Origin: a virus
Length of the DNA stretch: 57,256 nucleotides
IMG/VR virus record: IMGVR_UViG_3300025294_000007
Span: 1-57,256 of that record
Strand: one strand, 5' to 3'
Of this stretch, positions 20,576 to 52,629 are shown piece after piece; position 1 is the first letter of the stretch; each line of letters opens with the position of its first letter. A program made the position numbers and the translations under genes. The notes beneath the pieces are model-generated. The model was not told the origin of the DNA. It did not search any database and worked only from the letters and a program-made list of their open reading frames with translations.

Positions 20576-20578
20576 ATA

Positions 20579-22002: not shown

Positions 22003-22061
22003 AAGTAACCTCCACTATTTTAATTTCTTTACACGAGCTGCTCTTTTTTCTATCCTCTTAT

Positions 22062-22804: not shown

Positions 22805-22817
22805 TACGTAGCCTCCT

Positions 22818-23471: not shown

Positions 23472-23533
23472 AATTACGCCCCCTAATCGATAATGTAATT
23501 AAATTCGAATCCTTAACGTTCTTCTGAATACCT

Positions 23534-24502: not shown

Positions 24503-24514
24503 TTAGCATCCTCC

Positions 24515-27740: not shown

Positions 27741-27742
27741 AA

Positions 27743-28822: not shown

Positions 28823-28823
28823 A

Positions 28824-29111
28824 TTATCGACTCTCCCTTGCTTGTTTTACTGCATCAAATACCTCCGTAATGTTACATATACCGTTAATTCGCGCCATTT
28901 CAATACCGTTTCGTTCAAATATAAGAACTGGAACACTCGTAATTTTATATTTATCGACTAGTTCTGTTTCTTGAGTAATATCATGCTCGATTACTGTTGC
29001 GCCAAGTGCTTCTAATTCCGTCATTTCTTCGGCTAGTGCATACCCTAATACTTGGCACGGTCGGCAATTGGGCTTTGATAGTTTCCTAATCTTAATTTGC
29101 GTTAATCCCAC
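28824..29111 (-). CDS. Thioredoxin/NrdH-like redoxin, 95 aa
   Basis: CRPC active-site motif near the N-terminus. Confidence 0.65.
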   Translation of the reverse strand: MGLTQIKIRKLSKPNCRPCQVLGYALAEEMTELEALGATVIEHDITQETELVDKYKITSVPVLIFERNGIEMARINGICNITEVFDAVKQARESR

Positions 29112-31264
29112 GTTAGTTCCTCCTTGTTATTAAACCATTCATTTACCGACATACCTTCCCCCCAGCGTAAGCTGATTTCAAGGTCGGTTTTATTCGGAAC
29201 ATTTAATTTAACCGTATTTAACATAACTGCTTCAAATTCTGCTACTTCTTCTCGTGTAATGGTATTTGGCACATATACGCCAATTTCATCATGGATACTA
29301 AACGCAGGGAACCAGTTACCTTTTCTCTTACACAGCTTGCTGACTTCGATCATAGTCTTTTTAGTTTGAATAGCAGCGCTGCCCTGTACGTAACTATTCT
29401 TAACTTGTCGTTCTGCTCGCGCCTTTTCCCGATAGTCTCTCGATCTAATCAACGGTACGCGACGTTTGCGATCAAATAACATGCGGATATATCCATGCTT
29501 TTTAGCATGATTTACTAACCCGTTCATGAAGTCACGAACACACGTATATTCTTCATAAAAATCGTCAATGAACGCCTGTGCTTCTTCTTTTGTAATACCT
29601 AGCTGCTTTCCGAGTGTGTATGGACCAGTGCCGTACATAACTGCAAGCATACCTGTTTTCATCATTTTTCGGTATTTCGAACCATCTCCACATTCTTCTG
29701 GCGGTTTCTTAAATAACTTTGACGCAGCCATTGTATATAAGTCTTGGCCTGTAGTATAAATTTCGGTTAAGTACGGTTCTCCACTGGCATGTGTTAATAT
29801 CCGTGGCTCTTGTTGAGAAAAGTCTCCGCTAAGAATGACATAACCTGGTGGCGCAACAAACATCGTCTTGGCAACTGCGGGTAAATTTTGTAGGTTCGGT
29901 TCTCGGCTACTGAAACGCCCTGTATCTGTAGTGTCCTGATTAAATTCGCCATGTACCCGTCCATCTGACTGGACCTGGCGAGGCATACTGTCGAAGTAAG
30001 TGCCGAAAGTTTTTGACGCTGCACGATATTTTAATAACATAGCAACACCGTCATGATGATTAGCGAGTATTTGTAAAGCTGTTTTATCAGTTGAATAATA
30101 CCCACTGTCACCACGTTTTAAGTCGGTTTTATTGAGATATTTATCGAGCTTCAGTTGATCGTATAAAAGAGACCTTAATTGCTGAGTACTGTTAAAGTTG
30201 AATTCATTATCTACCTCGAATGACTTTCGCATTTCAATATCAAGGCTATCTAACTTCTTTTTTTCTTCGGTCGCTAATTGTTCAACTCGTTTTTCGTCTA
30301 AATACAATCCTGCTCGTTCCATATCAACCACAACAGAAATTAACGGATTTTCCACTGCCATGTAATACTCATATAACTGCGTTCTCTCTAAATGGTGACG
30401 TTGAAAGTCTCGAAGTTTAATTGTAATGTCCCCATCTTTAGCTGCGTAGGCAAGTGCTAAATCCATTGGTACCTGATGAAAGCCTAGTTTACCGAACAAT
30501 TGACTGTATTTTAACGAAGGTATTCTTAGATATTTCGTTGCCAAGTCTTTTAGTGCCTTACTTTCCTCGTTTTCATTTAGAACATGACAGGCTACTTGTG
30601 TATCAAATACGAGTCCTTGTAAATCAACGCCCTCATTTCGCAACATGTGAATATCAAACTTTGCGTTGTGCGCGATTTTACCGAGTGATTCATTTTCATA
30701 ATAAGGCTTTAATTTCTGTATGACGTAATCATGGTCAAGTTGTTGAAAATCTGTCTCATGTTTAGTCGGTATATAAACATGAATGTTTGCTTTAACTGCT
30801 GAAATTACTTGCCCTACAATAAAGTCTTTGTAAACGTCTGTGCCAGTTGTCTCTACGTCAAAACATATTTCCATTTCATTATCCAACAGCTTGCATAATT
30901 CATCTAATTGATCCGAAGTTGTAACTAACCAGTAATTATCTGGAGTTTGCTCAATCATTTCTTGTCTAATTTGATTGATTCTCTCCTGTTGTAATGTAGC
31001 ATATAAGCGTAAAGCCTCCGCCTTGCTAAATCGTTTACCAGCACTGGATTCTTCACGACCAACTATTCCAGCAGCCATTGCTCCTTTTACTTCGTATAAC
31101 TTGCGCAAATCAGCATTACTATTTTTCATAGATAGAATTCGAACCCATGCTTCTTCGATTGTTTCATTTGCGCTAGCCTTACGTTTACTTGCATCCTTTA
31201 ATGCAGTCGAGGAGGACGTTTGTTTTGACATATTCAATTGAATTTTTAATTGCATCGTCATCAT
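29102..31264 (-). CDS. Family A DNA polymerase with a 3'-5' exonuclease domain, 720 aa
   Basis: Exo I FDVETTG; Pol motif A DFSQQEPR; motif B KTGMLAVMYG; motif C SIHDEI. Confidence 0.9.
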   Translation of the reverse strand: MMTMQLKIQLNMSKQTSSSTALKDASKRKASANETIEEAWVRILSMKNSNADLRKLYEVKGAMAAGIVGREESSAGKRFSKAEALRLYATLQQERINQIRQEMIEQTPDNYWLVTTSDQLDELCKLLDNEMEICFDVETTGTDVYKDFIVGQVISAVKANIHVYIPTKHETDFQQLDHDYVIQKLKPYYENESLGKIAHNAKFDIHMLRNEGVDLQGLVFDTQVACHVLNENEESKALKDLATKYLRIPSLKYSQLFGKLGFHQVPMDLALAYAAKDGDITIKLRDFQRHHLERTQLYEYYMAVENPLISVVVDMERAGLYLDEKRVEQLATEEKKKLDSLDIEMRKSFEVDNEFNFNSTQQLRSLLYDQLKLDKYLNKTDLKRGDSGYYSTDKTALQILANHHDGVAMLLKYRAASKTFGTYFDSMPRQVQSDGRVHGEFNQDTTDTGRFSSREPNLQNLPAVAKTMFVAPPGYVILSGDFSQQEPRILTHASGEPYLTEIYTTGQDLYTMAASKLFKKPPEECGDGSKYRKMMKTGMLAVMYGTGPYTLGKQLGITKEEAQAFIDDFYEEYTCVRDFMNGLVNHAKKHGYIRMLFDRKRRVPLIRSRDYREKARAERQVKNSYVQGSAAIQTKKTMIEVSKLCKRKGNWFPAFSIHDEIGVYVPNTITREEVAEFEAVMLNTVKLNVPNKTDLEISLRWGEGMSVNEWFNNKEELTWD

Positions 31265-36662: not shown

Positions 36663-37403
36663 TTACCGTCTACCACGCTTGGATCCACCCTCAAATGCGA
36701 TTACAGCACATTGATCCCGAACTCTATCTGCCAATCGCGCATCGAAAACGGAAGCTAACTCATTAATAGGAACATTACTTGTGTATACTGTTGGCTTATC
36801 CGAAGTTGTTCTTGCGTTAATAATCGCATGTACTAATGATCTAAAACTTTCAGTTGAACCGCGCAAACCTATATCATCACAAACTAAGAAATCTACACTT
36901 GATGCTCGCTTGATGATGGATTTAATTTCGTTTAATCCGTTCTCGTCATTTGTCATAGTTGCAAGATTATACTTTGTCTGCATTTCGTTAATGTCTAAAA
37001 ATAGTGCTGGTTGTTGAATTGGTTGAACTCCGTGTTTCAATGCTCCCAAATAAGTTGTAATGATATATTCGTTCATGGCAACTACGGCAGTAGTTGTTTT
37101 ACCAGTTCCCGGAGACTCACTGTAAAGATACAAGGACTTAATGCGATTGTTTCCTGCGTCGAATATACGTTGATAAGTCGCAATATATTTCTCCAATAAA
37201 TCGTACGCCTTTGACTGTGTATCTCGTGCAGGTGAGTTTTTTAATGTCAAATCTCTATAACTAGAAGGTGCGCCTGCTGATGCAATGCGTCCGCCTTTTC
37301 CGTTTAAGCCAGTGAGGCTGATTTTATGTGGGCATGTTGGCGGACATGATGAACAACCATTGCGATTGCGTTCGTTAAGTATGCAATTTTGAACTATAGC
37401 CAT
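36663..37403 (-). CDS. DnaC/IstB-like AAA+ helicase loader with an N-terminal Cys-rich segment, 246 aa
   Basis: Walker A ESPGTGKTTTA and Walker B FLVCDDIG. Confidence 0.75.
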   Translation of the reverse strand: MAIVQNCILNERNRNGCSSCPPTCPHKISLTGLNGKGGRIASAGAPSSYRDLTLKNSPARDTQSKAYDLLEKYIATYQRIFDAGNNRIKSLYLYSESPGTGKTTTAVVAMNEYIITTYLGALKHGVQPIQQPALFLDINEMQTKYNLATMTNDENGLNEIKSIIKRASSVDFLVCDDIGLRGSTESFRSLVHAIINARTTSDKPTVYTSNVPINELASVFDARLADRVRDQCAVIAFEGGSKRGRR

Positions 37404-37783
37404 TCTGCCACTTCCTTATACTCTTCTTTCGCTTGTTCTGTCGCTTCTTTCCGTTTTTCAATCAATTCTGCCTGTTGCAACAATCGTGTCATATACGTCA
37501 CCATGAACCAGAATGTCAATCCAGGATATTGTTGCGTAGGTTTATAGTGCATGAAACATGCATCAATAAACGCTTTTACCGTCTCTTTACGATACAGACC
37601 TGTCTTACGAGCTGTTCCGATGTATTTTGTAATTAAATTACGTTCGGCTACTACACCACCTGCGCAGGTATATTGAATTCCATAGTATCTAACGTGTTGA
37701 TCGCGTAAGTAGGCTTGAAAATGCGCGCTATTCCATCTGTCTATTGACATTTCCGTATAATGATTAGACTTTTTAGTTTTCAA
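37394..37783 (-). CDS. Hypothetical replication-module protein, 129 aa (TTG start)
   Basis: ORF behind AAGGAG. No motif recognised. Confidence 0.4.
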   Translation of the reverse strand: MKTKKSNHYTEMSIDRWNSAHFQAYLRDQHVRYYGIQYTCAGGVVAERNLITKYIGTARKTGLYRKETVKAFIDACFMHYKPTQQYPGLTFWFMVTYMTRLLQQAELIEKRKEATEQAKEEYKEVAEWL

Positions 37784-37870
37784 TTTTCTTCGCTCCTTAA
37801 AAGAATAAAGGGTAATTATTACACTACCCCCTATTTATTTTGCGTTAAATCAGGGTTTAAAAAGCGTTTT

Positions 37871-40366
37871 TTAATCAAATACACCTGATATTAAATAAAT
37901 CTTATTATCAATGTTTGCATTTAGTCTTTTCATTTGGACTTTTAAAATAATACTTTCTTTAGCTTCCTTTGTTTCATAGTAAAATTCATCTTCTACAATT
38001 CCTTGTCTAACAGTTTCAGTACCTGTTGGTGTAAGAGCTACAAACTCCTCTTGTTCATTCTTTGATGTCATAGATAACTCTGCATTAAGAATAAGGTTTT
38101 CATCACGTTGAATCCAAAATAATACTCCTTTAGCTATTCCTTTGGGTGGCTCAATTTTATAGCGTGCAACAGACTCTAAAACAGGTGTATTAATCTCATT
38201 CTTATTTAGCGTAACTTTCTTCTTCGTTTTTGCTCCGTAATTGTCAATGACTTCAATCAGTATTTGATTTTCGCCAACTCGTAAATGTTCCAACAAGACT
38301 TCAAATTTCCATTCTCCGCCTGTACCACTATAAATCTCAACTGCTTTAGCGCTGTTAATTTGGTAATTTACTGTAACTGTTGAATTTGCATCTTGATCAT
38401 AGGCAGTACCACTAATTGTGAATTTATCAGTATCAATGGATCCACTAGGTACAACAGTATCTACAGACAATAACGGAGCTCGGTTAGGTACAACATAGAA
38501 TGATTTTTCAACGACTGATGACGATACGTTTTCGCTGTCTACAGCCCACACTTTTAATTTGTGCGCTACACCATCAGCTAGATTACCTGTAATAGCTATA
38601 TCACCATCGTAAAGTTTTCCGGCTTTGAATTTAAGCTGTTTTGATAATGATATTTGCGTTTGACTGACATTTGTCGCTAAAACTTTTCGTGAATCGCTGT
38701 TGATCTGATAATACACTGTAACTGATTGGTCTTTATCTTGATCATAGGCATCTCCGTTAATATTCATTACATCATTTTCGTATAGTGTCTGCTTGTCCGT
38801 TGGAGATACAACAGCAATAGACGGCGCACTATTCTGTGTATATGTCCCTGTATATTCGATACTAGTATTAGTTAATTGATAAACCAAAGCCGGAATTGTA
38901 CCGAAATTACCACTATAAGAGTTATCTTGTAAAACTGATGGTAACGTTGCTTCACCGCTAGTTCTGCTTGTCACTGCCGGCACATTATACCACGCACCGT
39001 TAATAACGTAACGCGCTATAATATTGTTGACTGTAGTTGATATTGATGGGTTTATTCCTGCGTATACAACAGCTACTTTACCGGAACTATCGACTGAAAG
39101 GGATGGGTTAAACCAACTGTAGTCATAACCTGTTACACCTTCAGGAGTTCTCCAAGTAGCGCCCCCATCTAATGACTTACAGTAAACTATACTGTACTTA
39201 CTACCTTCCCCCTTACTTTGCCACGCTACATGAATATTGCCGTTTTTGTCGATGACTGCCGACGGATTAAGTTGTTGAAAACTGCCTCCGCTATAGATTT
39301 TGCTTTCTTGCCATGAACCATTTTCGTATCTCTTAGCTATTATGTTGTAAATAGAACCATCGTACTGCTGATAAATGATAACAGGAACGGTGTCTTTTCT
39401 ACCCACTATCGTAGGTGTTGAGTTGTGTGTACTGGAAACATTAAAGCTTGTTGCATTAACAACAGGTTCCCAGGAAACACCGCCGTTAGTACTCCTAGCA
39501 TAACGAATATTCCATGCATTTGGGTATGTTGATGTTACGCACGACCACGCCGCGTGCAAAAATCCGGACGTCGGATCAAATGCTAAAGACATAGTTGCTA
39601 CTGATGTTGGTGAATCAAGTGTTGTCTCAGCGGCGAACGAAAAAATACTACCATTTCTCACTAATTTTCTAAAACGAATAGAGTTACCATACGAGTACAT
39701 AAACCCAACCTCATTAGCATTTATAACCGTTATAACTACATCTGTAGTATCTACACCAGCTAAACCAAGTTGAGTAGCATACGTCCATGATGATCCTTCG
39801 TTTTGCGATATATATACTTTAATATAATCGACGTTTCTAATGACCGTCATTAATGTTCCGTCTGATACTCTGACTAACTTACGCCCCCCGTTGCCGTTTA
39901 CGCTATACGGTTGATTAATAACTTGTCCAGGAAGTACTGGTCCAACTGCTGCACCTTTAACATACCAATAGCCATCGCTCTGTCGTCCGTTTGCCGGGTA
40001 TGTTCCTTCTTCTACAGCGATATTACTTTGTACTAACGAACCTTTGGAGTACGATGTATTAGTACCTGTTTGAACATACGTTGATTTACCTGTTGTTTTT
40101 TTGACTTTTGAACCTAGGGTAGCTGTAGATCGATATACGTCTCTGCCTCCACCACTATATAGAGTACCGGTTGGGCCATTTACTGAATCATAATTTACAT
40201 AAGAACCTGACAATTGAACGTAACCTTCACTATCTAAGTAATATGAAGTGTTTCCCGCATATGTTCCATCATACGCTTCTTGTTCAGCCCCCCATACAAC
40301 CTGCCAATTATAAATTGGTGTCTCGTCTTTTATTGATGTAAACTTGTCATAATAATATAAAGCCAT
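37871..40366 (-). CDS. Tail fibre / receptor-binding protein paralogue with a BNR (Asp-box) beta-propeller, 831 aa
   Basis: Asp-boxes SLDGGATW, STNGGVSW and SQNEGSSW. The N-terminus MALYYYDKFTSIK and the C-terminal 320 aa or so are shared with 40448..43078 and 49948..51945. Confidence 0.7.
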   Translation of the reverse strand: MALYYYDKFTSIKDETPIYNWQVVWGAEQEAYDGTYAGNTSYYLDSEGYVQLSGSYVNYDSVNGPTGTLYSGGGRDVYRSTATLGSKVKKTTGKSTYVQTGTNTSYSKGSLVQSNIAVEEGTYPANGRQSDGYWYVKGAAVGPVLPGQVINQPYSVNGNGGRKLVRVSDGTLMTVIRNVDYIKVYISQNEGSSWTYATQLGLAGVDTTDVVITVINANEVGFMYSYGNSIRFRKLVRNGSIFSFAAETTLDSPTSVATMSLAFDPTSGFLHAAWSCVTSTYPNAWNIRYARSTNGGVSWEPVVNATSFNVSSTHNSTPTIVGRKDTVPVIIYQQYDGSIYNIIAKRYENGSWQESKIYSGGSFQQLNPSAVIDKNGNIHVAWQSKGEGSKYSIVYCKSLDGGATWRTPEGVTGYDYSWFNPSLSVDSSGKVAVVYAGINPSISTTVNNIIARYVINGAWYNVPAVTSRTSGEATLPSVLQDNSYSGNFGTIPALVYQLTNTSIEYTGTYTQNSAPSIAVVSPTDKQTLYENDVMNINGDAYDQDKDQSVTVYYQINSDSRKVLATNVSQTQISLSKQLKFKAGKLYDGDIAITGNLADGVAHKLKVWAVDSENVSSSVVEKSFYVVPNRAPLLSVDTVVPSGSIDTDKFTISGTAYDQDANSTVTVNYQINSAKAVEIYSGTGGEWKFEVLLEHLRVGENQILIEVIDNYGAKTKKKVTLNKNEINTPVLESVARYKIEPPKGIAKGVLFWIQRDENLILNAELSMTSKNEQEEFVALTPTGTETVRQGIVEDEFYYETKEAKESIILKVQMKRLNANIDNKIYLISGVFD

Positions 40367-40447
40367 CCTTATACTACCTCCCCTAATTCAACATTTAATA
40401 TTTTGATGTGTATTGTATTATTAATTTCTATGCTGCTCCTTCTTTTA

Positions 40448-43078
40448 TTAATCTATTACACCTGATATTAAATGAATCTTATTATTAACAGTCTCATCTG
40501 GTCTTGTCATTTGGATTTTTAAAATAATATTTTCTTTAGCTTCACCGGTCTCATAGTAGAATTCGTCTTCCACTATACCTTGTTTAAGCGCCACTGTATT
40601 TATTGAGGTAAGTTCTACAAACTCCTCTGGTTCACTCTGTTCTGTCATGGATATTTCTGTATTCATAGTAAGCTTTTCATCACGTTGAATCCAGAATAGG
40701 ACACCTTTAGCAGTTCCCTGTGGCGGTTCAATTTTATAGCGAGCAACTGATTTTAAGACAGGCTTATTATTCTCAGTTTTTCTGAGTTTAATAGTTTTAC
40801 TAGTTTTAGCACCGTAGTTGTCAACAATTTCAACTACAATCGTATTTTCACCAACCAAAAGTTGCGTTAGAAAAACGTCAAATCTCCACGATCCACCTGT
40901 ACCATTGTAAATTTCGACTGCATTACCTGCATTGATTCTATAGGCTACCTTTACGGAGGAATTCGCATCTTGATCCGATGCAGTTCCACTTATTTTAAAT
41001 TTATCAGTGTTGATTGTTCCGCTTGGTATGACTTCATCAATTGTTAGTAGAGGTGCTCTGTTAGGTACGACATAAAATGATCGTTCGACGATTGTAGAAG
41101 AAGCTTTTTCACTGTCCTCTGCCCACACTTTCAATGCATGAGCTACACCTTCAGCGAGAGTTCCTGTAATGGCCGATTCGCCATCGTAAAGTTTGCCAGC
41201 TTTAAATTTAAGTTGCTTAGATAACATTATTTGCGTTTGACTAATATTTGTTGTTAAGACCTTCTTGGAGTCGCTATTGATTTGATAATAAGATGTAACT
41301 GACTGATCTTTGTCAGCGTCGTATGCATCGCCTGAAATATTGAACGTGTCATTTTCGTAAAGCGTTTGATTGTCGCTAGGCGATAAAACGGCGATTGACG
41401 GTGGGTTATTTTTGACGATGGCACCCGCCAACAATACCCCTTTATCCGATGTTTCATGAATGTAAGGAGGTGGCGAACCTGTATTTCTACCAAACGAAAG
41501 ACGGAATTCTGGGTCGTGTAGTAACTGAGGGTATTGGCTGTCCGTATTTACTAGCGTTGATGATTCCCATGATAACCCCCTGTCTTTGGACATAAAGGCG
41601 TAAACATTACTAGTTGCTGGACTAAAACCCATAGCCCATAGATTGCCGTTTGTTTTATCGTAAGTTATCGTGGCACTTGTACATTTGTTATCATTTAAAA
41701 AATTTCCTGTAGGTTCTTGCCATGCAGTACCGCTATCAGACCACAGTGTCGTTAATTGCGCAACACCATTAGTAGTCGTCGTTTTTAGATAAATCAAGTG
41801 AAAACGGTCATTACTATCCATAATTAGTTTAGGCGCTGTAGCTAGTTGTACGCTAGCAGACACCGGGTACGCATTATTAAATGTTGCGCTATTGTTTGTA
41901 CTGTATAGGATGCCAATGGAGAACACACTACCTTGTACAATGCTATAGGCTATCCAGATTTTGTTTCCTTTTGCCACAATAGATGGCGCGTAATTGTCCT
42001 TATTTAACTCTGTAGAGTTTGTAAGCATCTTGGCATTAGTCCACGCGTTTCCTTGAGCGGCAACACAATTCATGTATCTAATATTATAATTTGATGGGTA
42101 GATACTAGTTCTCACACTAAACGCTAAGTGTAGGATGCCTGTTGACTTGTCATAGAACATACTTGCACCAGCGCCGTTTTGTGAAATCGCATCTGTTGCA
42201 AGGATTGCGCCCGTTACCGTCAATGTGTGAGTTTCTAAGTTATACAAGTAATACAATAACTGAGCGTCTTTTTGTACTATCCATGCCACGCTATTACCTA
42301 CGGCGCATATGGTAGTGTCTTTCACACCTCCAATACCTAGCATGTACCCTTGTTCCCATGTTACGCCGTTATCTTTTGATACGAATAACGCTGTATTAGT
42401 ATCTTTTATATACGGCGCAGCAACTAGCCACCCATTGTCAAGGTATACAAATTTTGCATTCGCAGTAGGTCGTAATAATGACGTAATAATAGGTGTTACC
42501 GTCCCTGGTGGCGTCGGTCCCACGGCTCCCTTTTTAACGTACCAGTAGCCGTCAGTATGGCGCCCATCTGCTGGGTACGTGCCATCTTCTGCTGCTATGT
42601 TCGCCTGTACGAGTGCGCCTTTTGAGTAGGTTGTCTTGATAACAACAGGCGTTAATTTATAAATAGTTACCGTGTAGAAGTGCCCTGGGTTCTGCTCCTC
42701 GTAATCAGCGAACATATTAACCTTATATGTTCCGGCTCCGGGACCTGTAAATTGCATATAACAATATCTATGACCGTATGAACCGTAGTTAGTAGTGAAC
42801 TCGTATAAAGTTTTAAACACCGTTTCTTTAAGGTCACGATTTACAATAGGTTTCTCCATTCCAATCTTACCTGTTTTATCAATGGAAATACCATTATACG
42901 CAGTAGTCGGGTTTATTACAGTACCAGCGCCCAAATTATCAGGAATTAGTGGATTAAGCATTTGTACTACATCGACATTACTTATTGCTATTCTGGTTCC
43001 TGGAATAGCTACACTCTCGTAATAGTCGTATGTCTCATTTTTAATCGATGTAAACTTGTCATAATAATACTGTGCCAT
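40448..43078 (-). CDS. Tail fibre / receptor-binding protein paralogue with a BNR (Asp-box) beta-propeller, 876 aa
   Basis: Asp-boxes SKDNGVTW, SKDRGLSW and SDSGTAW. N-terminus MAQYYYDKFTSIK. Shares the C-terminal module. Confidence 0.7.
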   Translation of the reverse strand: MAQYYYDKFTSIKNETYDYYESVAIPGTRIAISNVDVVQMLNPLIPDNLGAGTVINPTTAYNGISIDKTGKIGMEKPIVNRDLKETVFKTLYEFTTNYGSYGHRYCYMQFTGPGAGTYKVNMFADYEEQNPGHFYTVTIYKLTPVVIKTTYSKGALVQANIAAEDGTYPADGRHTDGYWYVKKGAVGPTPPGTVTPIITSLLRPTANAKFVYLDNGWLVAAPYIKDTNTALFVSKDNGVTWEQGYMLGIGGVKDTTICAVGNSVAWIVQKDAQLLYYLYNLETHTLTVTGAILATDAISQNGAGASMFYDKSTGILHLAFSVRTSIYPSNYNIRYMNCVAAQGNAWTNAKMLTNSTELNKDNYAPSIVAKGNKIWIAYSIVQGSVFSIGILYSTNNSATFNNAYPVSASVQLATAPKLIMDSNDRFHLIYLKTTTTNGVAQLTTLWSDSGTAWQEPTGNFLNDNKCTSATITYDKTNGNLWAMGFSPATSNVYAFMSKDRGLSWESSTLVNTDSQYPQLLHDPEFRLSFGRNTGSPPPYIHETSDKGVLLAGAIVKNNPPSIAVLSPSDNQTLYENDTFNISGDAYDADKDQSVTSYYQINSDSKKVLTTNISQTQIMLSKQLKFKAGKLYDGESAITGTLAEGVAHALKVWAEDSEKASSTIVERSFYVVPNRAPLLTIDEVIPSGTINTDKFKISGTASDQDANSSVKVAYRINAGNAVEIYNGTGGSWRFDVFLTQLLVGENTIVVEIVDNYGAKTSKTIKLRKTENNKPVLKSVARYKIEPPQGTAKGVLFWIQRDEKLTMNTEISMTEQSEPEEFVELTSINTVALKQGIVEDEFYYETGEAKENIILKIQMTRPDETVNNKIHLISGVID

Positions 43079-43080
43079 TT

Positions 43081-43293
43081 TTAAACCACCTCTACTAATT
43101 CAACATTAAATGTTTGCCAATCACCGACAATTAGATCATTATCATATGGCAAACCCATAAATTTAGAATCGTCTGTATAGCGTTGTACTAACGAACAGCT
43201 TTCACATTTAAAAACATAATCGCCATCTTGTATTGAAAAACTGAATACGTGGTTACAACATGTTTGCTGGTTAAGTAATTGATTACGTTTCAT
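43081..43293 (-). CDS. Chimeric 70-aa protein: Cys-rich N-terminus plus the last 14 aa of the fibre-adaptor protein
   Basis: CCNH...CESC, then ..GDWQTFNVELVEVV. Compare ..GDWQTYSVDLVEVV at the C-terminus of 52051..52629. Confidence 0.5.
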   Translation of the reverse strand: MKRNQLLNQQTCCNHVFSFSIQDGDYVFKCESCSLVQRYTDDSKFMGLPYDNDLIVGDWQTFNVELVEVV

Positions 43294-43502
43294 AGCAACC
43301 TCCTTCTTTTATTTGCGATATACTTTTTAGATTAAGATATTCAAAGATTATATTGATATGGAGCAATAGCGACATAGAGGATTTATGCGAATGCATAAAG
43401 ACTCGTTAATATTTTAAAGATATTAGTTTAGTTAAAAAGAAAGTAGTATAGTTCGTGTATCTAGCTTGACGCCCCTGAGGCATATTCCATCTGACACCCC
43501 TA

Positions 43503-43805
43503 TCATCTTTTATCGAGTAAATAATAGACGTTTGTTGTCTGTTTCCCTTGCCCAAAAACTCGTTTTTCTCTCCGAATATAGCCTACAGATTCTAGAGATT
43601 TTAACGCCCTAAATACACTATTACGACCAACACCAACTATTTCAGCAAGTTTCTGTGCGCTTGGGTATGCTTGTTTACTATTGTTGTCCGTAAATAGACT
43701 AAGCGCTATGTATACCATTTTATCTCGATGTGTTAACGATTTATCGAGTGCTAGTGATTGTGGTATCATAACGAATTTAGTTGTCTGATAATCGATTATT
43801 TGCAT
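43503..43805 (-). CDS. Winged-HTH DNA-binding protein (Rep-N / DnaD-like family), 100 aa
   Basis: FVMIPQSLALDKSLTHRDKMVYIALSLF...AYPSAQKLAEIVGVGRNSVFRALKSLESVGYI. Confidence 0.55.
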   Translation of the reverse strand: MQIIDYQTTKFVMIPQSLALDKSLTHRDKMVYIALSLFTDNNSKQAYPSAQKLAEIVGVGRNSVFRALKSLESVGYIRREKRVFGQGKQTTNVYYLLDKR

Positions 43806-44746: not shown

Positions 44747-45541
44747 TTATCCTAAGAAACCATAATAATCATAACGAAGTTGTCTATTATAAATACCGCG
44801 AGTTGTCTTTTTTATTGCACTGTAAAGAACCGCAGGTAGTGACTTCACTTTTCCACGCTTAAATGCATTTATTACGCTCAAAATAGTTTCACGGAATGTA
44901 TCTTCGTGGTCCTCAATCTGAATATCACGATCAACAGATGCTTTTGCTTTATAAATTACACCAACCATTTCATACAATTCCTCTGCATCAAAGAAAGGAG
45001 CTAATACGTATTTTAATGTTTCTGGTAATTTACTTACTAGCCCATTTTTAATGAGCGCAGCGTTTTCTCCTGTATCATATGTATTATTTAAATCTTTTTT
45101 AGGAGTTTGATTAAGAGTATTAGTATGACACTCGGTATGACATTGCATATTATCCGACACGACTTCAATTACTTGTCCGAATGCTTCTCGCGCTGAAATT
45201 TGTGTTAAGAAAACAATCGCATTTGACGATTGGCGTTTATCACCGTTAGCACGATCCAATTGATATTGAGCGATAATTCCCATTGATCCTAACGTGTTGC
45301 AAATACGTACTACCTGGCGAGTACTTAATCCGACCATTTTTGCGATAGATGACTTCGCCAAATAACATACTCCGTAAAATTTAGATGCATAGCGATGTAA
45401 AACGTCTAGTACGTTAAGCATTGATGTCGTCATAAATTCTCCGAATTGCAGGCGGATTGCTTTTGTATTAGCGTTCAGTTGTTCGATAGATTCAAAAGGT
45501 TGTAACATTCTATAAGTTTTTTCTGTGTTTAACAGTTTCAT
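44747..45541 (-). CDS. Plasmid Rep-like winged-HTH protein, 264 aa
   Basis: Central wHTH SIAKMVGLSTRQVVRICNTLGSMGII. It is divergent from parMR and has a long structured leader. Confidence 0.45.
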   Translation of the reverse strand: MKLLNTEKTYRMLQPFESIEQLNANTKAIRLQFGEFMTTSMLNVLDVLHRYASKFYGVCYLAKSSIAKMVGLSTRQVVRICNTLGSMGIIAQYQLDRANGDKRQSSNAIVFLTQISAREAFGQVIEVVSDNMQCHTECHTNTLNQTPKKDLNNTYDTGENAALIKNGLVSKLPETLKYVLAPFFDAEELYEMVGVIYKAKASVDRDIQIEDHEDTFRETILSVINAFKRGKVKSLPAVLYSAIKKTTRGIYNRQLRYDYYGFLG

Positions 45542-45988: not shown

Positions 45989-47065
45989 ATGCAATTGTTT
46001 GCGTTAGATTTAGGAAACCGTCAAGTAAAATTAATGAGTGAAAAAGCTACAAAAGTCCTACCTAGTTACTTTGTAAATGCTGCAGAATACGGGAAGCGTG
46101 ACGTGCTTGCGTTAGGTAAAAAAGAAAAGGAACAGACAACTAGCGATTATGTAACAGGTCGTGACGCAGATTTTACTTACGTTTGGGGAACGGGATTAGA
46201 TATTAACCGCAAACGTGTTACGGATACATTGGACTTCAATAGACGATATGATACGTTAGAATTTAAGGTGTTAGCAGATTTAGCACTTACTGAATTAGCG
46301 CGTGACTTTAAAGAATCTACAAAGAGCGCTATTGACGTGGCAGTTGTAACTGGTGTACCTACAGACGATTACGATAATGACGAGACAATTAAGCACATTA
46401 GAAACGCTTTAATCGGCGTACATAGCGCCTCGATTGACGGGGTAGATCATTATGTTCATGTACGTTCTGTAGACGTTCTTATGCAGCCAGTAGGCACAGC
46501 TATAGACGCAATGGTTGACGCACTTGGCAATATTAAAGAAGATAACGATATTGAGGACGGATATATTGGAGTAGTCGATGTCGGAGGTGGTACGGTTATC
46601 ATCAACGCTTTCGATAAGATGAATCTTGATACAAAGCACCGTGTACAAATGGAGGACGGATCATATTCATTATTCACAGAGATCCGCAATCGAATCATTG
46701 ATAAAGGCTACAAAATTTCTGAACACGAAGTTGAGCAAATTGTCCGTGATGGTAACGATAAGGAAGTATATACGTGGTCGCCAAACGGTCGTGAAACGCT
46801 TGATTTTACAGATATGGTTATGAAAGAGCGTAAATTATACACTCGTAACATTGCTCAATCTGTGAAATCAACGTTTAAAGCGATGTCTAGTATGCGTAAA
46901 ATATACGTAACTGGAGGTACTGCAAATCTTCTTATTAAAGATGAATTTACACGAGTAGTCAAAATTGCACATTTTGTAAACGACAGTGAAACGGCAAACG
47001 TGCGCGGGTATTATAAATACGGATTAATAAATGAGGTGACTGCTGTTGACGAAGCTACGAATTGA
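45989..47065 (+). CDS. Actin-like segregation ATPase (ParM/Alp family), 358 aa
   Basis: Phosphate-1 ALDLGNRQVK, phosphate-2 VVDVGGGTVII and adenosine motif YVTGGTANL. Confidence 0.8.
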   Translation: MQLFALDLGNRQVKLMSEKATKVLPSYFVNAAEYGKRDVLALGKKEKEQTTSDYVTGRDADFTYVWGTGLDINRKRVTDTLDFNRRYDTLEFKVLADLALTELARDFKESTKSAIDVAVVTGVPTDDYDNDETIKHIRNALIGVHSASIDGVDHYVHVRSVDVLMQPVGTAIDAMVDALGNIKEDNDIEDGYIGVVDVGGGTVIINAFDKMNLDTKHRVQMEDGSYSLFTEIRNRIIDKGYKISEHEVEQIVRDGNDKEVYTWSPNGRETLDFTDMVMKERKLYTRNIAQSVKSTFKAMSSMRKIYVTGGTANLLIKDEFTRVVKIAHFVNDSETANVRGYYKYGLINEVTAVDEATN

Positions 47066-47330
47066 GGTCGTACTAACGGAAGCAGATGCGGATATAATCG
47101 AATTTATACAAAGTAGTAGTGTGCCTCGCGCTACTCAATTTAAGCTGGCAATGCGCGAAAAGATGCAACGCCGTGAAGAGGAAAAGTTTGATACTAGAGT
47201 TAAACGATTGCTGGACGAAGTACTAGCGCAACGAGGCGTAAGTAATCCGGTAATTAATGAAGTGAAACCGTCAAAGAGACTTGGATTCGGCGGAAAAAGA
47301 CTTTATGACGATGAAGGCGACAGAAAATAA
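47046..47330 (+). CDS. ParR-like ribbon-helix-helix adaptor, 94 aa (TTG start behind GAGGTGA)
   Basis: N-terminal RIEVVLTEADADIIEFIQ beta-strand/helix pattern. Overlaps the parM stop. Confidence 0.55.
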   Translation: MTKLRIEVVLTEADADIIEFIQSSSVPRATQFKLAMREKMQRREEEKFDTRVKRLLDEVLAQRGVSNPVINEVKPSKRLGFGGKRLYDDEGDRK

Positions 47331-49605: not shown

Positions 49606-49737
49606 TTTATCGCCTGTGATTTCTTTAAATTGTGCCGTCGTAATCTTGCCAGCTACAACGAAAATCTTTACGTTATCTTTCGTATAAAATCGTGGATAGT
49701 ACGCTTTTGCTGCGTTTAAGTATACATCGTTATTCAT
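49606..49737 (-). CDS. XkdX-family small protein, 43 aa as read (C-terminus out of register, see findings)
   Basis: MNNDVYLNAAKAYYPRFYTKDNVKIFVVAGKITTAQFKE.. Below the ORF-track cutoff. Confidence 0.6.
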
Positions 49738-49948
49738 TTTTTGCGCCTCCTAATATTTGTAGTAACAATTCCGCTTGTAACGATTCTATCGCATCTAAAC
49801 GAATATCTTTTTCTATTAAAGAAAGCGTTAGAGACGCGTTTTCCTCCTCTAATCGCTCTACTCTTTCGCTAGATGTTTCGCCTTGACCGATTTTTTCTAC
49901 TGCGCCCAATGATCCGTCTGATAGGCGTGGTCTACGTTCAATAGCCAT
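49730..49948 (-). CDS. Small coiled-coil tail-fibre-associated protein (XkdW position), 72 aa
   Basis: Gene order only. Confidence 0.45.
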   Translation of the reverse strand: MAIERRPRLSDGSLGAVEKIGQGETSSERVERLEEENASLTLSLIEKDIRLDAIESLQAELLLQILGGAKNE

Positions 49949-51945
49949 TAAAGCACCCCCATAATTAATGTAATAGCGCTGTTTGCTTCAACATCCAATT
50001 TTTCCAATTCAAGTTGCAGGATAATAGAATCTTTCGCTTCATCAGATGCTAAGTAAAACTCATCTTCCACCTGACCGTTTTGTAGATTAGCTGTATTCGT
50101 CAGTGTCATAGGCTTAAACGATTCTTGTTCGCCTGATAGTGTCATACTTGCTGATATTTTTAACGTCAATTCAGCGTTATGTTGTACCCAAATGATAATC
50201 TCGGAAGCTGATCCAGTAGGAGGCGCTATTTTATAGCGAGCTGTTGATTTGTTAATGGGCACAACAACTTTATTTTTAAGGAGTTTTACCGTTTGAGTTG
50301 TTTTAGCACCGTAGCTGTCAACAGCTTCAACTGTTATAAGGTTTTCCCCAATGTTCAATGCGCCTAAAGAGACATTAAAGTCGAATGTTCCACTTGTGCC
50401 AGTTGCGATTTGAATGGAATTAGCACCGTTAATACGGTAGCTTACCGTCGTTTCGTTTTGGTCTTGATCCTCGAACGTTCCATCAATAACAAAGGTGTCC
50501 TTATCTATATTACCGGTTGTGGTAGGTGGATTAACTGTCAGCAATGGCACACGGTTAGGTACGACATAAAATGTTCGCACCACGTTCTCGGATGACGCAT
50601 TTTCGGTATCAACAGCCCAAACTTTTAAAGTGTGTGCTACACCTTCTGTTAAATCGCTTGTAATTGCTGTCTCATCGTCATAAAGTTTTCCTGCTTTAAA
50701 AGTGAGCTTTTTGGATAACGATATTTCTGTTTTACTTAGATTAGTAGCTAATACTTTTCGTTGTTCACTGTTTATTTGATAGTAAACTGTAACCGATTGA
50801 TCTGTATCAGTATCGGAAGCTGTACCTGTAATGTTTAATGTGTCATTTTCGTACAATGTCACGTTTTCAGACGGGCTGGTTAATATCACAGTAGGTGCAT
50901 TATTGTATTTCATTGTATATTCTGCGGAAGTAGTCCAAGCAGAAGCATCTGACGAATCCTTAGCACATACCCTAAATTGAATATATGTCCCTGTAATATT
51001 GGTTGGTATTGTCCAAGATATTCCGTTAGTAGTAGTAGTACTTATAGTAGTCCAAGACTGGCCTCTATCCTTCGTGTACTGGAATTGATAATTTACTACA
51101 TCTCCGTCTGGGTCACTTACTGTTCCGGCAGTTATTGATACTGCAACACCCGGCTTGAAAGTTCCAGTAGCTTGTAAACTTCCGGGCTTAGGAGGAGCAG
51201 TATTTAAATGAGTAATACGAGCATATCCACCTCCGGTATTTCCGTTTCCTGAAGTTCCATTAGGGAGAAGCATGTAGTTAGCTCCATTAACGGAGTTACC
51301 GGAAGTGACTCCCCCAATGTATCCGGAACCACCGCCACCTCCGGCATCATCATCATCACTATGGCTAGGGTAGTCGGTTCCGCCGCCGCCACCTCCGTAG
51401 TAGCCACCGCCACCGCCACCACCTCCTACGGAAGAAGTGCCCTGTCCTGAACGTCCTCCTTGTCCTAAAGAACCTGATTCTCCAGAAGAACCTCCGGAAC
51501 CACCGGCTCCTCCTGAGCCAGAAGAACCTCCGGAACCACCCATTCTAGTAGAAGCAGCATCGGGAGCCTTTAATCCATCAATTCCTCCTCCGGCTCCTCC
51601 GGCATGTGCGTCACTATAGGAAATATATCTTCCAGCTCCACCGCCACCTCCGGCTACAAGGATACGGTTGGATAATGAAGTACCTCCTCTACGAAAATCT
51701 GTGGCTCCACCACCATATAATTCAGACTTATTAGCTGCTCCGCCACCATTATATCCGAACTGTCCACCTACATATATATACAGAACTTCTCCGGCAGTAA
51801 GATTTACTATACCTTCTGAGAATCCTCCCTTTCCTCCATAAGTACCTCCTTGCGCTCCCCATGCGTATAATTGGTATCGTCCAGTTGTGGGAACAGTAAA
51901 AGTTTGCACAGCATTTGTATTTCCAAAATTCCATGTTTGACCCAT
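49948..51945 (-). CDS. Glycine-rich-domain tail fibre paralogue, 665 aa
   Basis: N-terminal TFTVPTTGRYQLYAWGAQGG...GGGGGGGGYYGGGGGG glycine-rich domain. The C-terminal 320 aa or so are homologous to the two BNR fibres. Confidence 0.7.
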   Translation of the reverse strand: MGQTWNFGNTNAVQTFTVPTTGRYQLYAWGAQGGTYGGKGGFSEGIVNLTAGEVLYIYVGGQFGYNGGGAANKSELYGGGATDFRRGGTSLSNRILVAGGGGGAGRYISYSDAHAGGAGGGIDGLKAPDAASTRMGGSGGSSGSGGAGGSGGSSGESGSLGQGGRSGQGTSSVGGGGGGGGYYGGGGGGTDYPSHSDDDDAGGGGGSGYIGGVTSGNSVNGANYMLLPNGTSGNGNTGGGYARITHLNTAPPKPGSLQATGTFKPGVAVSITAGTVSDPDGDVVNYQFQYTKDRGQSWTTISTTTTNGISWTIPTNITGTYIQFRVCAKDSSDASAWTTSAEYTMKYNNAPTVILTSPSENVTLYENDTLNITGTASDTDTDQSVTVYYQINSEQRKVLATNLSKTEISLSKKLTFKAGKLYDDETAITSDLTEGVAHTLKVWAVDTENASSENVVRTFYVVPNRVPLLTVNPPTTTGNIDKDTFVIDGTFEDQDQNETTVSYRINGANSIQIATGTSGTFDFNVSLGALNIGENLITVEAVDSYGAKTTQTVKLLKNKVVVPINKSTARYKIAPPTGSASEIIIWVQHNAELTLKISASMTLSGEQESFKPMTLTNTANLQNGQVEDEFYLASDEAKDSIILQLELEKLDVEANSAITLIMGVL

Positions 51946-51956: not shown

Positions 51957-52049
51957 CTATACTAAGACAAGTAGAGTCTTTTCTTTCGTCGATTTCAAAT
52001 CATACCTGTTCTTAATTTTCGCATACGTAACATTATAATACTGAGTCAT
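51957..52049 (-). pseudogene. 30-codon remnant of a YYYDKF-type fibre N-terminus
   Basis: MTQYYNVTYAKIKNRYDLKSTKEKTLLVLV, compared with MAQYYYDKFTSIKNETYDY. It starts 1 nt after the ..VEVV stop codon. Confidence 0.5.
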
Positions 52050-52050: not shown

Positions 52051-52629
52051 CTACACCACCTCAACTAAATCGACACTGTATGTTTGCCAGTCACCGACGC
52101 TCATCTCTGCATTAGTTGTATCAATCACAACATTACTACGAGCTACTTTAGCACCTTTTTTATATGCATTTTTAAGTTCCTGAACTTTAAGAGTATCTGT
52201 GCCTACCTCAGTAATAGTAACGTCTTCGCTGTTTTCATCATCAAAAATAGTGACTTGAGAAAGGGCTATAAATCCCTCTGTACTAGCGACTCTTAAAGTA
52301 GTTCTGCCTACAGCAACAGCTTCGATAATTTCTGTTGTTGTTTTGTCTAGTACCATTCTAGTAGCAGCACCATCAAAGGCATCAAAGAAACTACCTCCGT
52401 TACCAGGAGCACGACCGTCAATGTCAAGTTGAGCCTGCAATCGTTTAACTGTTGTCTCTAATTTGATAATATACTCGTATGCTCCGTAAACTCCGTCTTC
52501 TATATTGTTAGCACGTTTTTGATTAAAGCGTGTACCCTCTTGTATGATTTGTCCGGTCGTCACATCTTTGATTTGGTCGTACCAAACTGTCTTAATATAC
52601 GGATTTACTTTACGTCCTAATGTAGTCAT
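52051..52629 (-). CDS. Tail fibre adaptor / upper fibre protein (XkdV position), 192 aa
   Basis: Gene order. The C-terminal ..GDWQTYSVDLVEVV junction is reused at 43081..43125. Confidence 0.55.
   Translation of the reverse strand: MTTLGRKVNPYIKTVWYDQIKDVTTGQIIQEGTRFNQKRANNIEDGVYGAYEYIIKLETTVKRLQAQLDIDGRAPGNGGSFFDAFDGAATRMVLDKTTTEIIEAVAVGRTTLRVASTEGFIALSQVTIFDDENSEDVTITEVGTDTLKVQELKNAYKKGAKVARSNVVIDTTNAEMSVGDWQTYSVDLVEVV

What the first reader, a model, noticed from the sequence alone, without database searches (positions are those of the whole stretch)
37871..43293. Ectopic second receptor-binding locus: two BNR/Asp-box propeller fibre genes between the replication and plasmid-maintenance modules
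The 831-aa and 876-aa proteins share three parts: the N-terminus M-A-x-YYYDKFTSIK, a G(S/A)LVQ(S/A)NIA(V/A)E(E/D)GTYPA(N/D)GR..DGYWYVK linker, and a C-terminal module of about 320 aa. Their central domains are different sialidase-like propellers, each with several S-x-D-x-G-x-(T/S)-W boxes.

The same C-terminal module also ends the glycine-rich fibre at the canonical tail locus (49948..~50905). The phage therefore encodes three fibres with a common C-terminus and three different heads. Two of them lie more than 6 kb from the baseplate genes.

This could mean a multivalent or switchable host range, or depolymerase activity on three different cell-wall glycans.
Basis: partly seen in the sequence, partly recalled or inferred. 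Interest (0 to 1): 0.65.

Follow-up and report, generated by a model that had tools for sequence, protein, structure and literature searches.

The report
Captured tail-fibre genes in replication operon
A Lysinibacillus phage that lives as a plasmid carries two intact extra host-recognition (tail-fibre) genes copied from the tail region of other phages into its early replication operon, which probably lets one virus carry several receptor binders but has not been tested.

Summary
ORFs 37871..40366 (831 aa) and 40448..43078 (876 aa) share an N-terminal unit and a ~322-aa C-terminal module. That module also ends the glycine-rich protein at 49948..51945. The central domains are diverged BNR/Asp-box beta-propellers (AlphaFold pLDDT about 90).

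In all ten related loci examined, a fibre carrying this C-module occupies the last-tail-gene slot: after Baseplate_J, a gp48-like gene and ~100-aa and ~200-aa genes, and before a ~71-aa gene, XkdX, holin and lysin. So this is a tail-fibre/RBP family.

The ectopic pair is a ~5.6-kb insertion. The sister phage-plasmid of L. capsici PB300 has 187 nt at this site, and three or four other relatives carry small early genes there. Each inserted gene still drags the last codons (NVELVEVV*) of the gene that precedes fibres at canonical loci. The 70-aa ORF is a fusion of a native Cys-rich ORF with that tail.

The C-modules are anciently diverged (dS 1.7, dN/dS 0.11), so this is not a recent duplication.

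No invertase, inverted repeats, DGR or sialidase catalytic motifs were found, so "switchable" and "sialidase" are unsupported. Virion incorporation is untested.

Verdict: a real, well-explained RBP-capture event and a new variant of the known multi-RBP theme. Interest is moderate.

The parts
37790..43355 (-). The inserted cassette (~5.6 kb): chimeric 70-aa ORF, 876-aa fibre gene, 831-aa fibre gene and a terminator-like hairpin. The end points are approximate and are defined by loss of homology to the sister plasmid.
   Evidence: blastn against L. capsici PB300 contig_22: L019 6086-6527 matches window 43797-43356, and L019 6715-7814 matches window 37762-36663. PB300 has 187 nt where the window has 5.59 kb.
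43081..43293 (-). Chimeric 70-aa ORF. Residues 1 to ~45 are a native Cys-rich small early ORF. The last 15 codons (43081..43128, VGDWQTFNVELVEVV*) are the 3' end of the ~200-aa gene that precedes fibre genes at canonical tail loci.
   Evidence: The Cys-rich part has homologs directly after the wHTH gene in L060, L062 and L063, and one in L022. The tail is the same conserved end as in window 52051..52629, L001 9363-9998 and L006 6519-7157.
40448..43078 (-). 876-aa fibre/RBP gene. N-unit aa 1-194 (42497..43078), BNR propeller aa 195-554 (41417..42496), C-module aa 555-876 (40448..41416).
   Evidence: Residues 1-550 are 99-100% identical to a partial 'sialidase family protein' (690 aa) of L. xylanilyticus, P0067.
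40369..40395 (-). Remnant NVELGEVV* of the fibre-upstream gene, in the 81-nt spacer just before the start of the 831-aa gene.
   Evidence: Direct repeat D6, 40319-40403 against 43031-43115, 81% identical.
37871..40366 (-). 831-aa fibre/RBP gene. N-unit aa 1-147 (39926..40366), BNR propeller aa 148-510 (38837..39925), C-module of three Ig-like domains aa 511-831 (37871..38836).
   Evidence: AlphaFold2 models. Foldseek.
37797..37835 (-). 13-bp hairpin with a U-rich tail directly after the 831-aa stop codon and before the RBS of the 129-aa gene. Terminator-like.
   Evidence: RNA fold -22.5 kcal/mol, z -3.3. It was not reported by the simple terminator scan. PB300 has no aligned counterpart at its empty site.
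43503..43805 (-). Left flanking backbone gene: 100-aa wHTH protein, resembling the N-terminus of replication initiators and DnaD-like loaders. A promoter-like site lies at 43939-43911.
37394..37783 (-). Right flanking backbone gene: 129-aa protein (phrog_6154), followed by DnaC-like, DnaB-like and primase genes.
49948..51945 (-). 665-aa glycine-rich protein in the canonical fibre slot. ALK/LTK-type glycine-rich domain aa 20-247, an Ig-like region, and the lineage's own C-module (aa ~345-665, 49948..50913).
   Evidence: Its C-module is 73% identical to that of the PB300 fibre, in line with the 75-82% backbone identity.
51957..52049 (-). 30-codon remnant ORF MTQYYNVTYAKIKNRYDLKSTKEKTLLVLV*. It starts one base after the stop of the upstream gene and looks like the decayed 5' end of a YYYDKF-type fibre displaced by the glycine-rich gene.
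   Evidence: The similarity is short (8 of 17 residues), so position is the main argument.
52051..52629 (-). 192-aa gene that precedes the fibre slot and ends ...VGDWQTYSVDLVEVV*. It is conserved in every related locus examined where the upstream region is on the contig, and it is the source type of the remnants in the cassette.
49730..49948 (-). 72-aa gene after the canonical fibre (Pfam Lin0124_C), followed by a 47-aa XkdX gene. The ectopic locus has no counterpart of either.

Best explanation
The window is a complete, circular ~57.1-kb Lysinibacillus phage-plasmid. It has a contractile PBSX-like tail, ParM/Alp7A partition and its own DNA polymerase.

The two genes are intact members of the tail-fibre/receptor-binding family that normally fills the last-tail-gene slot in Lysinibacillus myoviruses, PBSX-like elements and phage G. 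They were captured from the tail loci of other (pro)phages. Each copy was cut inside the last 12-15 codons of the conserved upstream gene. They landed by illegitimate recombination in a hypervariable accessory slot of the early operon, between the wHTH initiator-like gene and the 129-aa/DnaC/DnaB genes. This fused a native Cys-rich ORF to the foreign gene tail.

Each protein has three parts: an N-unit, a BNR beta-propeller head and a constant C-module of three Ig-like domains.

Inferred, not shown: both genes are transcribed with the early operon and translated from their own Shine-Dalgarno sites. The proteins are mounted on the baseplate alongside the glycine-rich fibre, through the shared C-module. 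This gives one virion up to three glycan-recognising heads and a wider or hedged host range among Lysinibacillus strains.
For: Family identity:
- In all ten related loci a fibre carrying the same C-module sits in the canonical slot: P0015, P0014, P0002, P0003, P0037, P0033, P0029, P0062, PB300 and pFN9E. The first seven are full-length BNR homologs (41-59% identity). The other three carry other heads or none.
- Phage G has gp423 (a homolog of the upstream gene), four tandem fibres gp424-427 that all carry the C-module, then gp428/gp429, which resemble the 72-aa gene and XkdX by N-terminal sequence and position.

Insertion:
- PB300 has an empty site.
- L060, L062, L063 and L067 hold small early ORFs there and no fibre genes.

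Origin:
- VGDWQTFNVELVEVV* and NVELGEVV* remnants lie directly upstream of both genes.

Intactness:
- Both ORFs are full length relative to 40 homologs.
- GGAGG-type and GAGGTGG ribosome-binding sites precede the two starts.
- C-modules have dN/dS 0.11 with dS 1.7.

Fold:
- Propeller plus three Ig-like domains.

C-module as the common handle:
- It is the only part shared by all slot occupants, including pFN9E, phage G gp426 and the glycine-rich protein, which lack the N-unit.
- Across nine loci its identity tracks that of the upstream ~200-aa gene (Spearman 0.84), against 0.26 for the N-unit.
Against: - There are no expression or virion data.
- The genes sit among early genes, which is an unusual time and place for structural genes.
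- A terminator-like hairpin follows the 831-aa gene. If it is strong it would interfere with the replication genes downstream, so the arrangement could be recent and not yet purged.
- The foreign C-modules are only 53% identical to the native one and may not fit this baseplate.
- The ectopic locus lacks the 72-aa and XkdX genes that follow canonical fibres.
- The correlation uses non-independent pairs from nine loci.
- Purifying selection was measured over a divergence that largely predates the insertion.
- The ectopic arrangement was found only in this one genome. The two assemblies are 100% identical over the 22.5 kb compared.
Confidence: 0.55

Rival explanations
1. Captured but unused. The cassette is a recent recombination by-product or a passive reservoir of RBP modules. 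It is not incorporated into virions, and it matters only as raw material for later exchange with the canonical fibre through the shared C-module and the conserved 5' junction.
For: - The arrangement is unique among five backbone relatives.
- The location is in early genes.
- The 72-aa and XkdX partner genes are missing.
- The foreign C-modules are 53% identical to the native one.
- A terminator-like hairpin sits awkwardly before the replication genes.
- The conserved junction and C-module could serve as homology arms.
Against: - Two ORFs of 2.5-2.6 kb have no stop codon or frameshift, and both keep ribosome-binding sites.
- A 99-100% identical copy of the 876-aa protein occurs in an L. xylanilyticus isolate, so the element or its donor circulates.
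- DNA identity of 71-79% to the canonical C-module is low for efficient homologous exchange.
Confidence: 0.27
2. A role outside the virion. The early-expressed BNR proteins act as free glycan-binding or glycan-cleaving proteins. They might be released at lysis to strip or mask surface glycans, or act in the lysogen as a superinfection barrier.
For: - The genes lie in the early operon, in a slot that holds accessory early genes in relatives.
- The propeller resembles glycosidases, lyases and lectins.
- The C-module resembles adhesin stalks and glycan-binding proteins.
Against: - The N-terminus (MA-x-YYYDKFTSIK) is a conserved family motif rather than a hydrophobic leader, judged by eye. Export from a living lysogen therefore looks unlikely.
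- In ten of ten related loci, fibres of this family sit in the tail-fibre slot.
- No conserved catalytic residues were found.
Confidence: 0.1
3. Assembly artefact. The contig is a metagenomic chimera that joins a tail locus of another phage to this backbone.
For: The window comes from metagenome assemblies, and the family is repetitive within Lysinibacillus communities.
Against: - Two assemblies, ENA 57,270 bp and JGI 57,175 bp, are 100% identical to the window over the 22.5 kb compared.
- The repeats are only 71-81% identical, too low to mislead a k-mer assembler.
- The left junction is an in-frame gene fusion with a ribosome-binding site, and the contig closes on itself (1-127 = 57130-57256).
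- GC content and GC3 match the backbone.
Confidence: 0.03

Closest known systems
XkdV-slot tail fibre of PBSX-like elements (Bacillus subtilis PBSX; Brevibacillus phage tail-like bacteriocins, PMC9406221)
   Same: In relatives the family occupies the same position: after Baseplate_J and a gp48-like gene, before XkdX, holin and lysin. It is hypervariable between strains, as expected for the specificity determinant.
   Different: Sequence similarity to XkdV itself was not tested. Here two copies lie outside the tail operon. The constant part is C-terminal and the variable heads are N-terminal or central.
Bacillus (Lysinibacillus) phage G gp424-gp427, the 'gp424 adhesion protein family' (PMC12484599)
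   Same: Same N-unit, BNR propellers and C-module (49-52% identity to the 831-aa C-module). Several paralogs in one genome all end in the same module. The block lies away from phage G's baseplate genes (PMC8570332).
   Different: In phage G the whole fibre block (upstream gene, four fibres, then genes resembling the 72-aa gene and XkdX) stays together. In the window only the fibre genes, with stubs of the upstream gene, were moved into an early operon. Function in phage G is also untested.
Multi-RBP phages with branched tailspike complexes (Ackermannviridae CBA120-type, PMC11414711; Klebsiella dual-RBP phages, PMC6872550; K1-5 and phi92, from my own knowledge)
   Same: One virion carries several glycan-specific binders. 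New specificities are gained by horizontal capture of RBP genes.
   Different: In those systems the RBP genes are clustered in the structural module and dock through distinct N-terminal adaptor domains. Here the shared element is a C-terminal Ig-like module, and two genes are encoded among replication genes. Incorporation is not shown.
Endosialidase tailspikes of K1 coliphages (GH58; from my own knowledge)
   Same: A sialidase-type beta-propeller used as the head of a phage receptor-binding protein.
   Different: No S74 chaperone domain was found, and no triple beta-helix stalk appears in the monomer model. Sialidase catalytic motifs are not conserved. The host is Gram-positive, with an S-layer.
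Micromonospora viridifaciens sialidase (1eut, 2ber)
   Same: Same domain order of propeller, Ig-like linker and beta-sandwich. It is among the top Foldseek hits (E about 1e-12 to 3e-13).
   Different: About 10% sequence identity and low global TM-score (0.25-0.36). No FRIP motif or Arg triad. It is a secreted enzyme, not a phage protein.

Membership tests
BNR/Asp-box beta-propeller superfamily (Pfam sialidase clan) | Six- or seven-bladed beta-propeller fold | tested here: met
   AlphaFold2 model of the 831-aa protein has a propeller at aa ~148-510 with pLDDT about 90. Foldseek hits to sialidases, GH145, PL42, GH93 and a propeller lectin have target TM-scores of about 0.3-0.64. Only the 831-aa protein was modelled. 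The 876-aa protein is inferred from alignment.
BNR/Asp-box beta-propeller superfamily (Pfam sialidase clan) | Repeated Asp-box S-x-D-x-G-x-T-W | tested here: met
   Three boxes in the 831-aa protein and two strict boxes in the 876-aa protein. These are the only five in the window.
BNR/Asp-box beta-propeller superfamily (Pfam sialidase clan) | Pfam BNR_2 score above the gathering threshold | tested here: inconclusive
   The 876-aa protein scores 32.1 bits (cut-off 31.4) and the 831-aa protein 25.2 bits. The family profile hits solved BNR proteins at E 5e-11.
GH33 exo-sialidase (catalytically active) | FRIP motif, arginine triad, Tyr/Glu nucleophile pair | tested here: not met
   Neither protein has an [FYW..]R[IVL]P motif. 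No invariant or nearly invariant Arg or Tyr occurs in the propeller columns of 40 homologs. This is a sequence-level test only. Another catalytic chemistry is not excluded.
Tail fibre / RBP of PBSX-like myoviruses (XkdV slot) | Gene lies after Baseplate_J/gp48-like genes and before XkdX, holin and lysin | tested here: not met
   This is met by the family fibre in ten of ten related loci. It is not met by the two genes themselves, which lie in the early operon. Remnants of the upstream gene show they came from such a slot.
Tail fibre / RBP of PBSX-like myoviruses (XkdV slot) | Protein present in virions and determines adsorption | not testable with these tools
   Needs virion proteomics and knock-outs.
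Endosialidase-type tailspike (GH58) | C-terminal S74 intramolecular chaperone domain and trimeric stalk | tested here: not met
   No such Pfam hit. The C-terminus is three Ig-like sandwiches.
Switchable fibre systems (Cin/Gin invertible segments, shufflons, DGRs) | Site-specific invertase or reverse transcriptase, plus inverted or template repeats flanking the variable part | tested here: not met
   Only two weak inverted repeats occur in 37000-52500, and neither flanks the genes. No recombinase, invertase or RT was found among the ORFs scanned. A few small ORFs were not scanned.
Phage-plasmid | Complete phage gene set plus plasmid partition and replication genes, no integrase | tested here: met
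   ParM/Alp7A and a ParR-like gene at 45989..47330, and a Rep-like wHTH protein at 44747..45541. Tail, lysis and replication genes are present. The contig ends overlap. No integrase was found. The head genes were not individually annotated.

The most novel reading that the evidence does not exclude
The C-terminal three-Ig-domain module is the baseplate-docking or assembly handle of this fibre family. That is the reverse of the usual polarity, in which the N-terminus anchors and the C-terminus binds the receptor. If so, any protein ending in the module can be mounted on the virion wherever its gene lies. The ectopic pair would then be a working example of 'plug-in' receptor binders encoded outside the structural operon. 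Phage G's four tandem fibres and the headless 462-aa fibre would be other states of the same system.
Probability: 0.3. Interest if true: 0.7.

Novelty: new variant of a known kind. Interest (0 to 1): 0.5.

Why it matters
Phages that carry several receptor binders, and horizontal swapping of those binders, are well known. Three things are new here.

- There is a clean, datable capture event. Two whole fibre genes, with scars of their former neighbour, were dropped into an accessory slot of the early/replication operon of a phage-plasmid.
- The fibre family has its constant part at the C-terminus and its variable heads at the N-terminus or centre. It spans tailocin-like chromosomal elements, phage-plasmids and the megaphage G.
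- There is a natural series for dissecting how specificity modules are added: a headless fibre, one head, two heads, four tandem genes and an ectopic pair.

If the ectopic proteins are mounted, host-range determinants need not be looked for only in the tail module. That matters for host prediction from genomes.

Tried and rejected
- Megablast of 37000-44000 against the phage and plasmid collections found nothing. Only protein-level searches were informative.
- Paenibacillus phage Unity has a 'replication initiation protein' directly upstream of the 129-aa homolog. It shows no BLAST similarity to the window's 100-aa wHTH protein, so I did not use it as an empty-site reference. PB300 served instead.
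- A recent in-situ duplication is rejected. The C-modules are 70.7% identical in protein and 71-79% in DNA, with dS 1.7. Each is about as close to fibres of other genomes (67-70%) as to its neighbour.
- Concerted evolution of the three C-modules is rejected for the same reason.
- An invertible or DGR-type switch is rejected.
- A sialidase active site is rejected at sequence level.
- Phage G's spacers between gp423-427 were checked for VEVV-type remnants. None were found. They carry a repeated hairpin instead.
- Foldseek of the C-module gave only generic Ig/FN3 adhesin stalks and no phage-specific match, so its role rests on comparative arguments.
- The phage G papers in the library do not say whether gp424-427 are virion proteins.
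- L016 and L017 are identical to the window, so there is no polymorphism to test current selection.
Full report
**1. Observation**

The minus strand carries three ORFs: 37871..40366 (831 aa), 40448..43078 (876 aa) and 43081..43293 (70 aa).

The two large proteins begin MA(L/Q)YYYDKFTSIK. Both contain the motif G(S/A)LVQ(S/A)NIA(V/A)E(E/D)GTYPA(N/D)GR..DGYWYVK. They are 42% identical overall. Their last ~322 residues are 70.7% identical to each other. That stretch is 53% identical over 330 aa (E 9e-112) to the end of the 665-aa glycine-rich protein at 49948..51945.

The five strict Asp-boxes found in the whole window all lie in these two proteins, three and two respectively. Pfam BNR_2 is just above threshold for one protein and below it for the other. 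A 40-sequence family profile hits solved BNR/Asp-box proteins at E 5e-11.

An AlphaFold2 model of the 831-aa protein has mean pLDDT 83. It shows:
- an N-terminal beta-sandwich (aa 11-108);
- a conserved but low-confidence linker (aa 108-142);
- a confident beta-propeller (aa ~148-510);
- three Ig-like sandwiches at the C-terminus.

A separate model of the C-module has pLDDT 92. Foldseek matches the propeller to sialidases, GH145, PL42, GH93 and a propeller lectin. It matches the C-module only to generic adhesin stalks and FN3/Ig arrays.

**2. What family this is**

A database search gave 136 homologs. Nearly all that carry a source name are from Lysinibacillus. One, P0067 from L. xylanilyticus, is 99-100% identical to residues 1-550 of the 876-aa protein.

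I looked at the genomic context of ten related loci: P0015, P0014, P0002, P0003, P0037, P0033, P0029, P0062, the PB300 fibre and the pFN9E fibre. In every case a fibre carrying the same C-module lies in the same slot. It follows Baseplate_J, a Mu gp48/P2 gpI-like gene, a ~100-aa gene and a ~200-aa gene. It precedes a ~71-aa gene, XkdX, holin and lysin. Seven of the ten are full-length BNR-propeller homologs, and three carry other heads or none.

This is the position of the fibre XkdV in PBSX (established knowledge; PMC9406221). Several of these loci are a chromosomal PBSX-like element next to aconitase. That element carries a different head in each strain, as expected for a specificity determinant.

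In the window this slot is held by the glycine-rich protein, followed by a 72-aa Lin0124_C gene and XkdX.

Phage G, whose host has been revised to Lysinibacillus, has a related block:
- gp423, a homolog of the ~200-aa upstream gene;
- four consecutive fibres, gp424-427, all ending in the C-module;
- gp428 and gp429, which resemble the 72-aa gene and XkdX by N-terminal sequence and position.

**3. The ectopic pair is an insertion, and its origin can be read from scars**

The window is a circular ~57.1-kb element: bases 1-127 repeat at 57130-57256. It encodes ParM/Alp7A partition, a Rep-like protein, DNA polymerase A, ribonucleotide reductase, ThyX and a contractile tail. No integrase was found. 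It is a phage-plasmid.

A sister element is contig_22 of L. capsici PB300 (57,977 bp). It shares the backbone at 75-82% DNA identity. There, the wHTH gene and the 128-aa gene are separated by non-homologous sequence of only 187 nt. The window has 5.59 kb at that point.

Four further relatives (L060, L062, L063, L067) carry 1.9-3.3 kb or more of small early ORFs of unknown function at this site, and no fibre genes. The site is therefore a hypervariable accessory slot of the early operon.

In three of these relatives (L060, L062, L063) the slot starts with a ~50-aa Cys-rich ORF, and L067 has a 53-aa ORF in the same position that I did not compare. The window's 70-aa ORF has that Cys-rich N-terminus. 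Its end, however, is VGDWQTFNVELVEVV*, the conserved C-terminus of the ~200-aa gene that precedes fibres at canonical loci. The spacer before the 831-aa gene keeps NVELGEVV* in the same position. An 85-nt repeat, 81% identical, spans both gene starts.

Both genes were therefore copied from tail loci with a stub of their former upstream neighbour.

The copies are old. Their C-modules are 71-79% identical in DNA, with dS 1.7 and dN/dS 0.11. Each is about as close to fibres of other genomes as to its neighbour. The pair was therefore acquired from elsewhere, together or in two steps, and was not duplicated in place.

**4. The canonical fibre is also rearranged**

One base after the stop of the 192-aa gene lies a 30-codon ORF, MTQYYNVTYAKIKN...*. 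It looks like the decayed start of a YYYDKF-type fibre. It is followed by a fresh ribosome-binding site and the glycine-rich gene.

The glycine-rich protein's C-module is 73% identical to that of the PB300 fibre, which is the backbone level of divergence. So in this lineage the C-module stayed put while the N-terminal part was replaced.

Further observations bear on which part is the constant handle:
- pFN9E's only fibre, phage G gp426 and the glycine-rich protein all lack the N-unit but keep the C-module.
- L067 has a 462-aa fibre made of the N-unit and C-module only.
- Across nine loci, C-module identity follows the identity of the upstream ~200-aa gene (Spearman 0.84). This is much better than the N-unit does (0.26), although the N-unit is the DNA neighbour of that gene.

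The pairs in that correlation are not independent, so this is suggestive only. Together these points make the C-module the best candidate for the part that fits the virion or its assembly partners. That is the reverse of the usual fibre polarity. This is inference.

**5. How it most likely works**

Shown: family membership, insertion, origin, intact reading frames, ribosome-binding sites and predicted folds.

Inferred: the cassette is read from the early promoter region, where a promoter-like site lies at 43939-43911. The simple scan reported no terminator within the cassette. The proteins would accumulate and be mounted through the C-module beside the glycine-rich fibre, adding two glycan-recognising heads.

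Caveats:
- A 13-bp hairpin with a U-rich tail follows the 831-aa gene, just before the replication genes.
- The foreign C-modules are only 53% identical to the native one.
- The 72-aa and XkdX partner genes are not duplicated.
- Only one genome shows the arrangement.

I put 0.55 on the full statement. The captured-RBP-genes part is at about 0.9, and mounting on virions at about 0.5.

**6. What is not supported**

'Switchable' is not supported. There is no invertase, reverse transcriptase or flanking inverted repeat, and the copies are too diverged for frequent homologous exchange.

'Sialidase/depolymerase' is not supported at sequence level. There is no FRIP motif and no invariant Arg or Tyr in the propeller across 40 homologs. 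The heads may bind rather than cut, or may use other chemistry.

The relevant surface is that of Lysinibacillus, not Bacillus.

**7. Comparison with known systems, and novelty**

Multi-RBP phages and RBP capture are well described (PMC11414711, PMC6872550). Propeller heads are known from K1 endosialidases (my own knowledge).

Membership in GH33, GH58 and invertible-segment systems fails on tested features. Membership in the BNR propeller superfamily and in the XkdV-slot fibre family holds by homology. Position is not met for the two genes themselves.

My literature searches of the paper library turned up no description of fibre genes captured into an early-operon cargo slot of a phage-plasmid, nor of the C-terminal-constant architecture. 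This is a limited search.

I rate this a new variant of a known kind, with interest 0.5.

Noticed in passing
window 51957..52049 (-): A 30-codon ORF, MTQYYNVTYAKIKN...*, starts one base after the stop of the 192-aa gene. It looks like the remnant of a YYYDKF-type fibre start displaced by the glycine-rich gene, which has its own ribosome-binding site.
   Followed up: partly
window 43382..43399 (-): A hairpin, TTTATGC-ATTC-GCATAAA, lies between the wHTH gene and the Cys-rich ORF (z -3.9). PB300 keeps the stem with a different loop. It may be an operator, attenuator or origin element.
   Followed up: partly
window 37797..37835 (-): A 13-bp hairpin with a U-rich tail lies right after the 831-aa gene and before the 129-aa/DnaC/DnaB genes. 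PB300 has no aligned counterpart at its empty site. If it terminates transcription it would affect expression of the replication genes.
   Followed up: partly
window 1..127 and 57130..57256: The contig ends are identical, so the window is a complete circular (or terminally redundant) genome of about 57.13 kb.
   Followed up: yes
window 18913..19233 (-): A 106-aa protein has only a sigma-70 region 4 match. It is a candidate phage late-transcription factor.
   Followed up: no
window 19985..31264 (-): The nucleotide-metabolism set is large for a 57-kb temperate element: DNA polymerase A, NrdE/NrdF/NrdI, thioredoxin-like protein, ThyX, dUTPase, PhoH, RuvC and a DUF1599 nucleotide-modification domain.
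   Followed up: partly
L067 10001-11389 (Logan SRR6659455_651, 60,937 bp): A phage-plasmid of the same family has a 'headless' 462-aa fibre, made of the N-unit and C-module only, as its sole protein in the fibre slot.
   Followed up: partly
L066 (phage G 326002-344114): gp423 is a homolog of the fibre-upstream gene. gp424-427 are four tandem fibres with one to two propellers each and the same C-module. gp428 and gp429 resemble the 72-aa gene and XkdX by N-terminal sequence and position. The spacers carry a repeated hairpin (CCTTCTATG...CATAGAAGG).
   Followed up: partly
L002, L008, L065: A chromosomal PBSX-like element sits next to the aconitase gene and an SLH-domain gene in several Lysinibacillus genomes. 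Each carries a different BNR fibre, which suggests a tailocin-like element with strain-specific targeting.
   Followed up: no
L021 12588-15068 (L. capsici PB300): The canonical 826-aa fibre contains the N-unit twice (YYYDK(F/Y) ... GSLVQ...DG(Y/F)WYV(R/K)). Each copy is followed by a non-propeller stretch that I take to be FN3-like (not scanned), and there is no propeller. The 'N-terminal' unit is therefore a repeatable internal module.
   Followed up: partly
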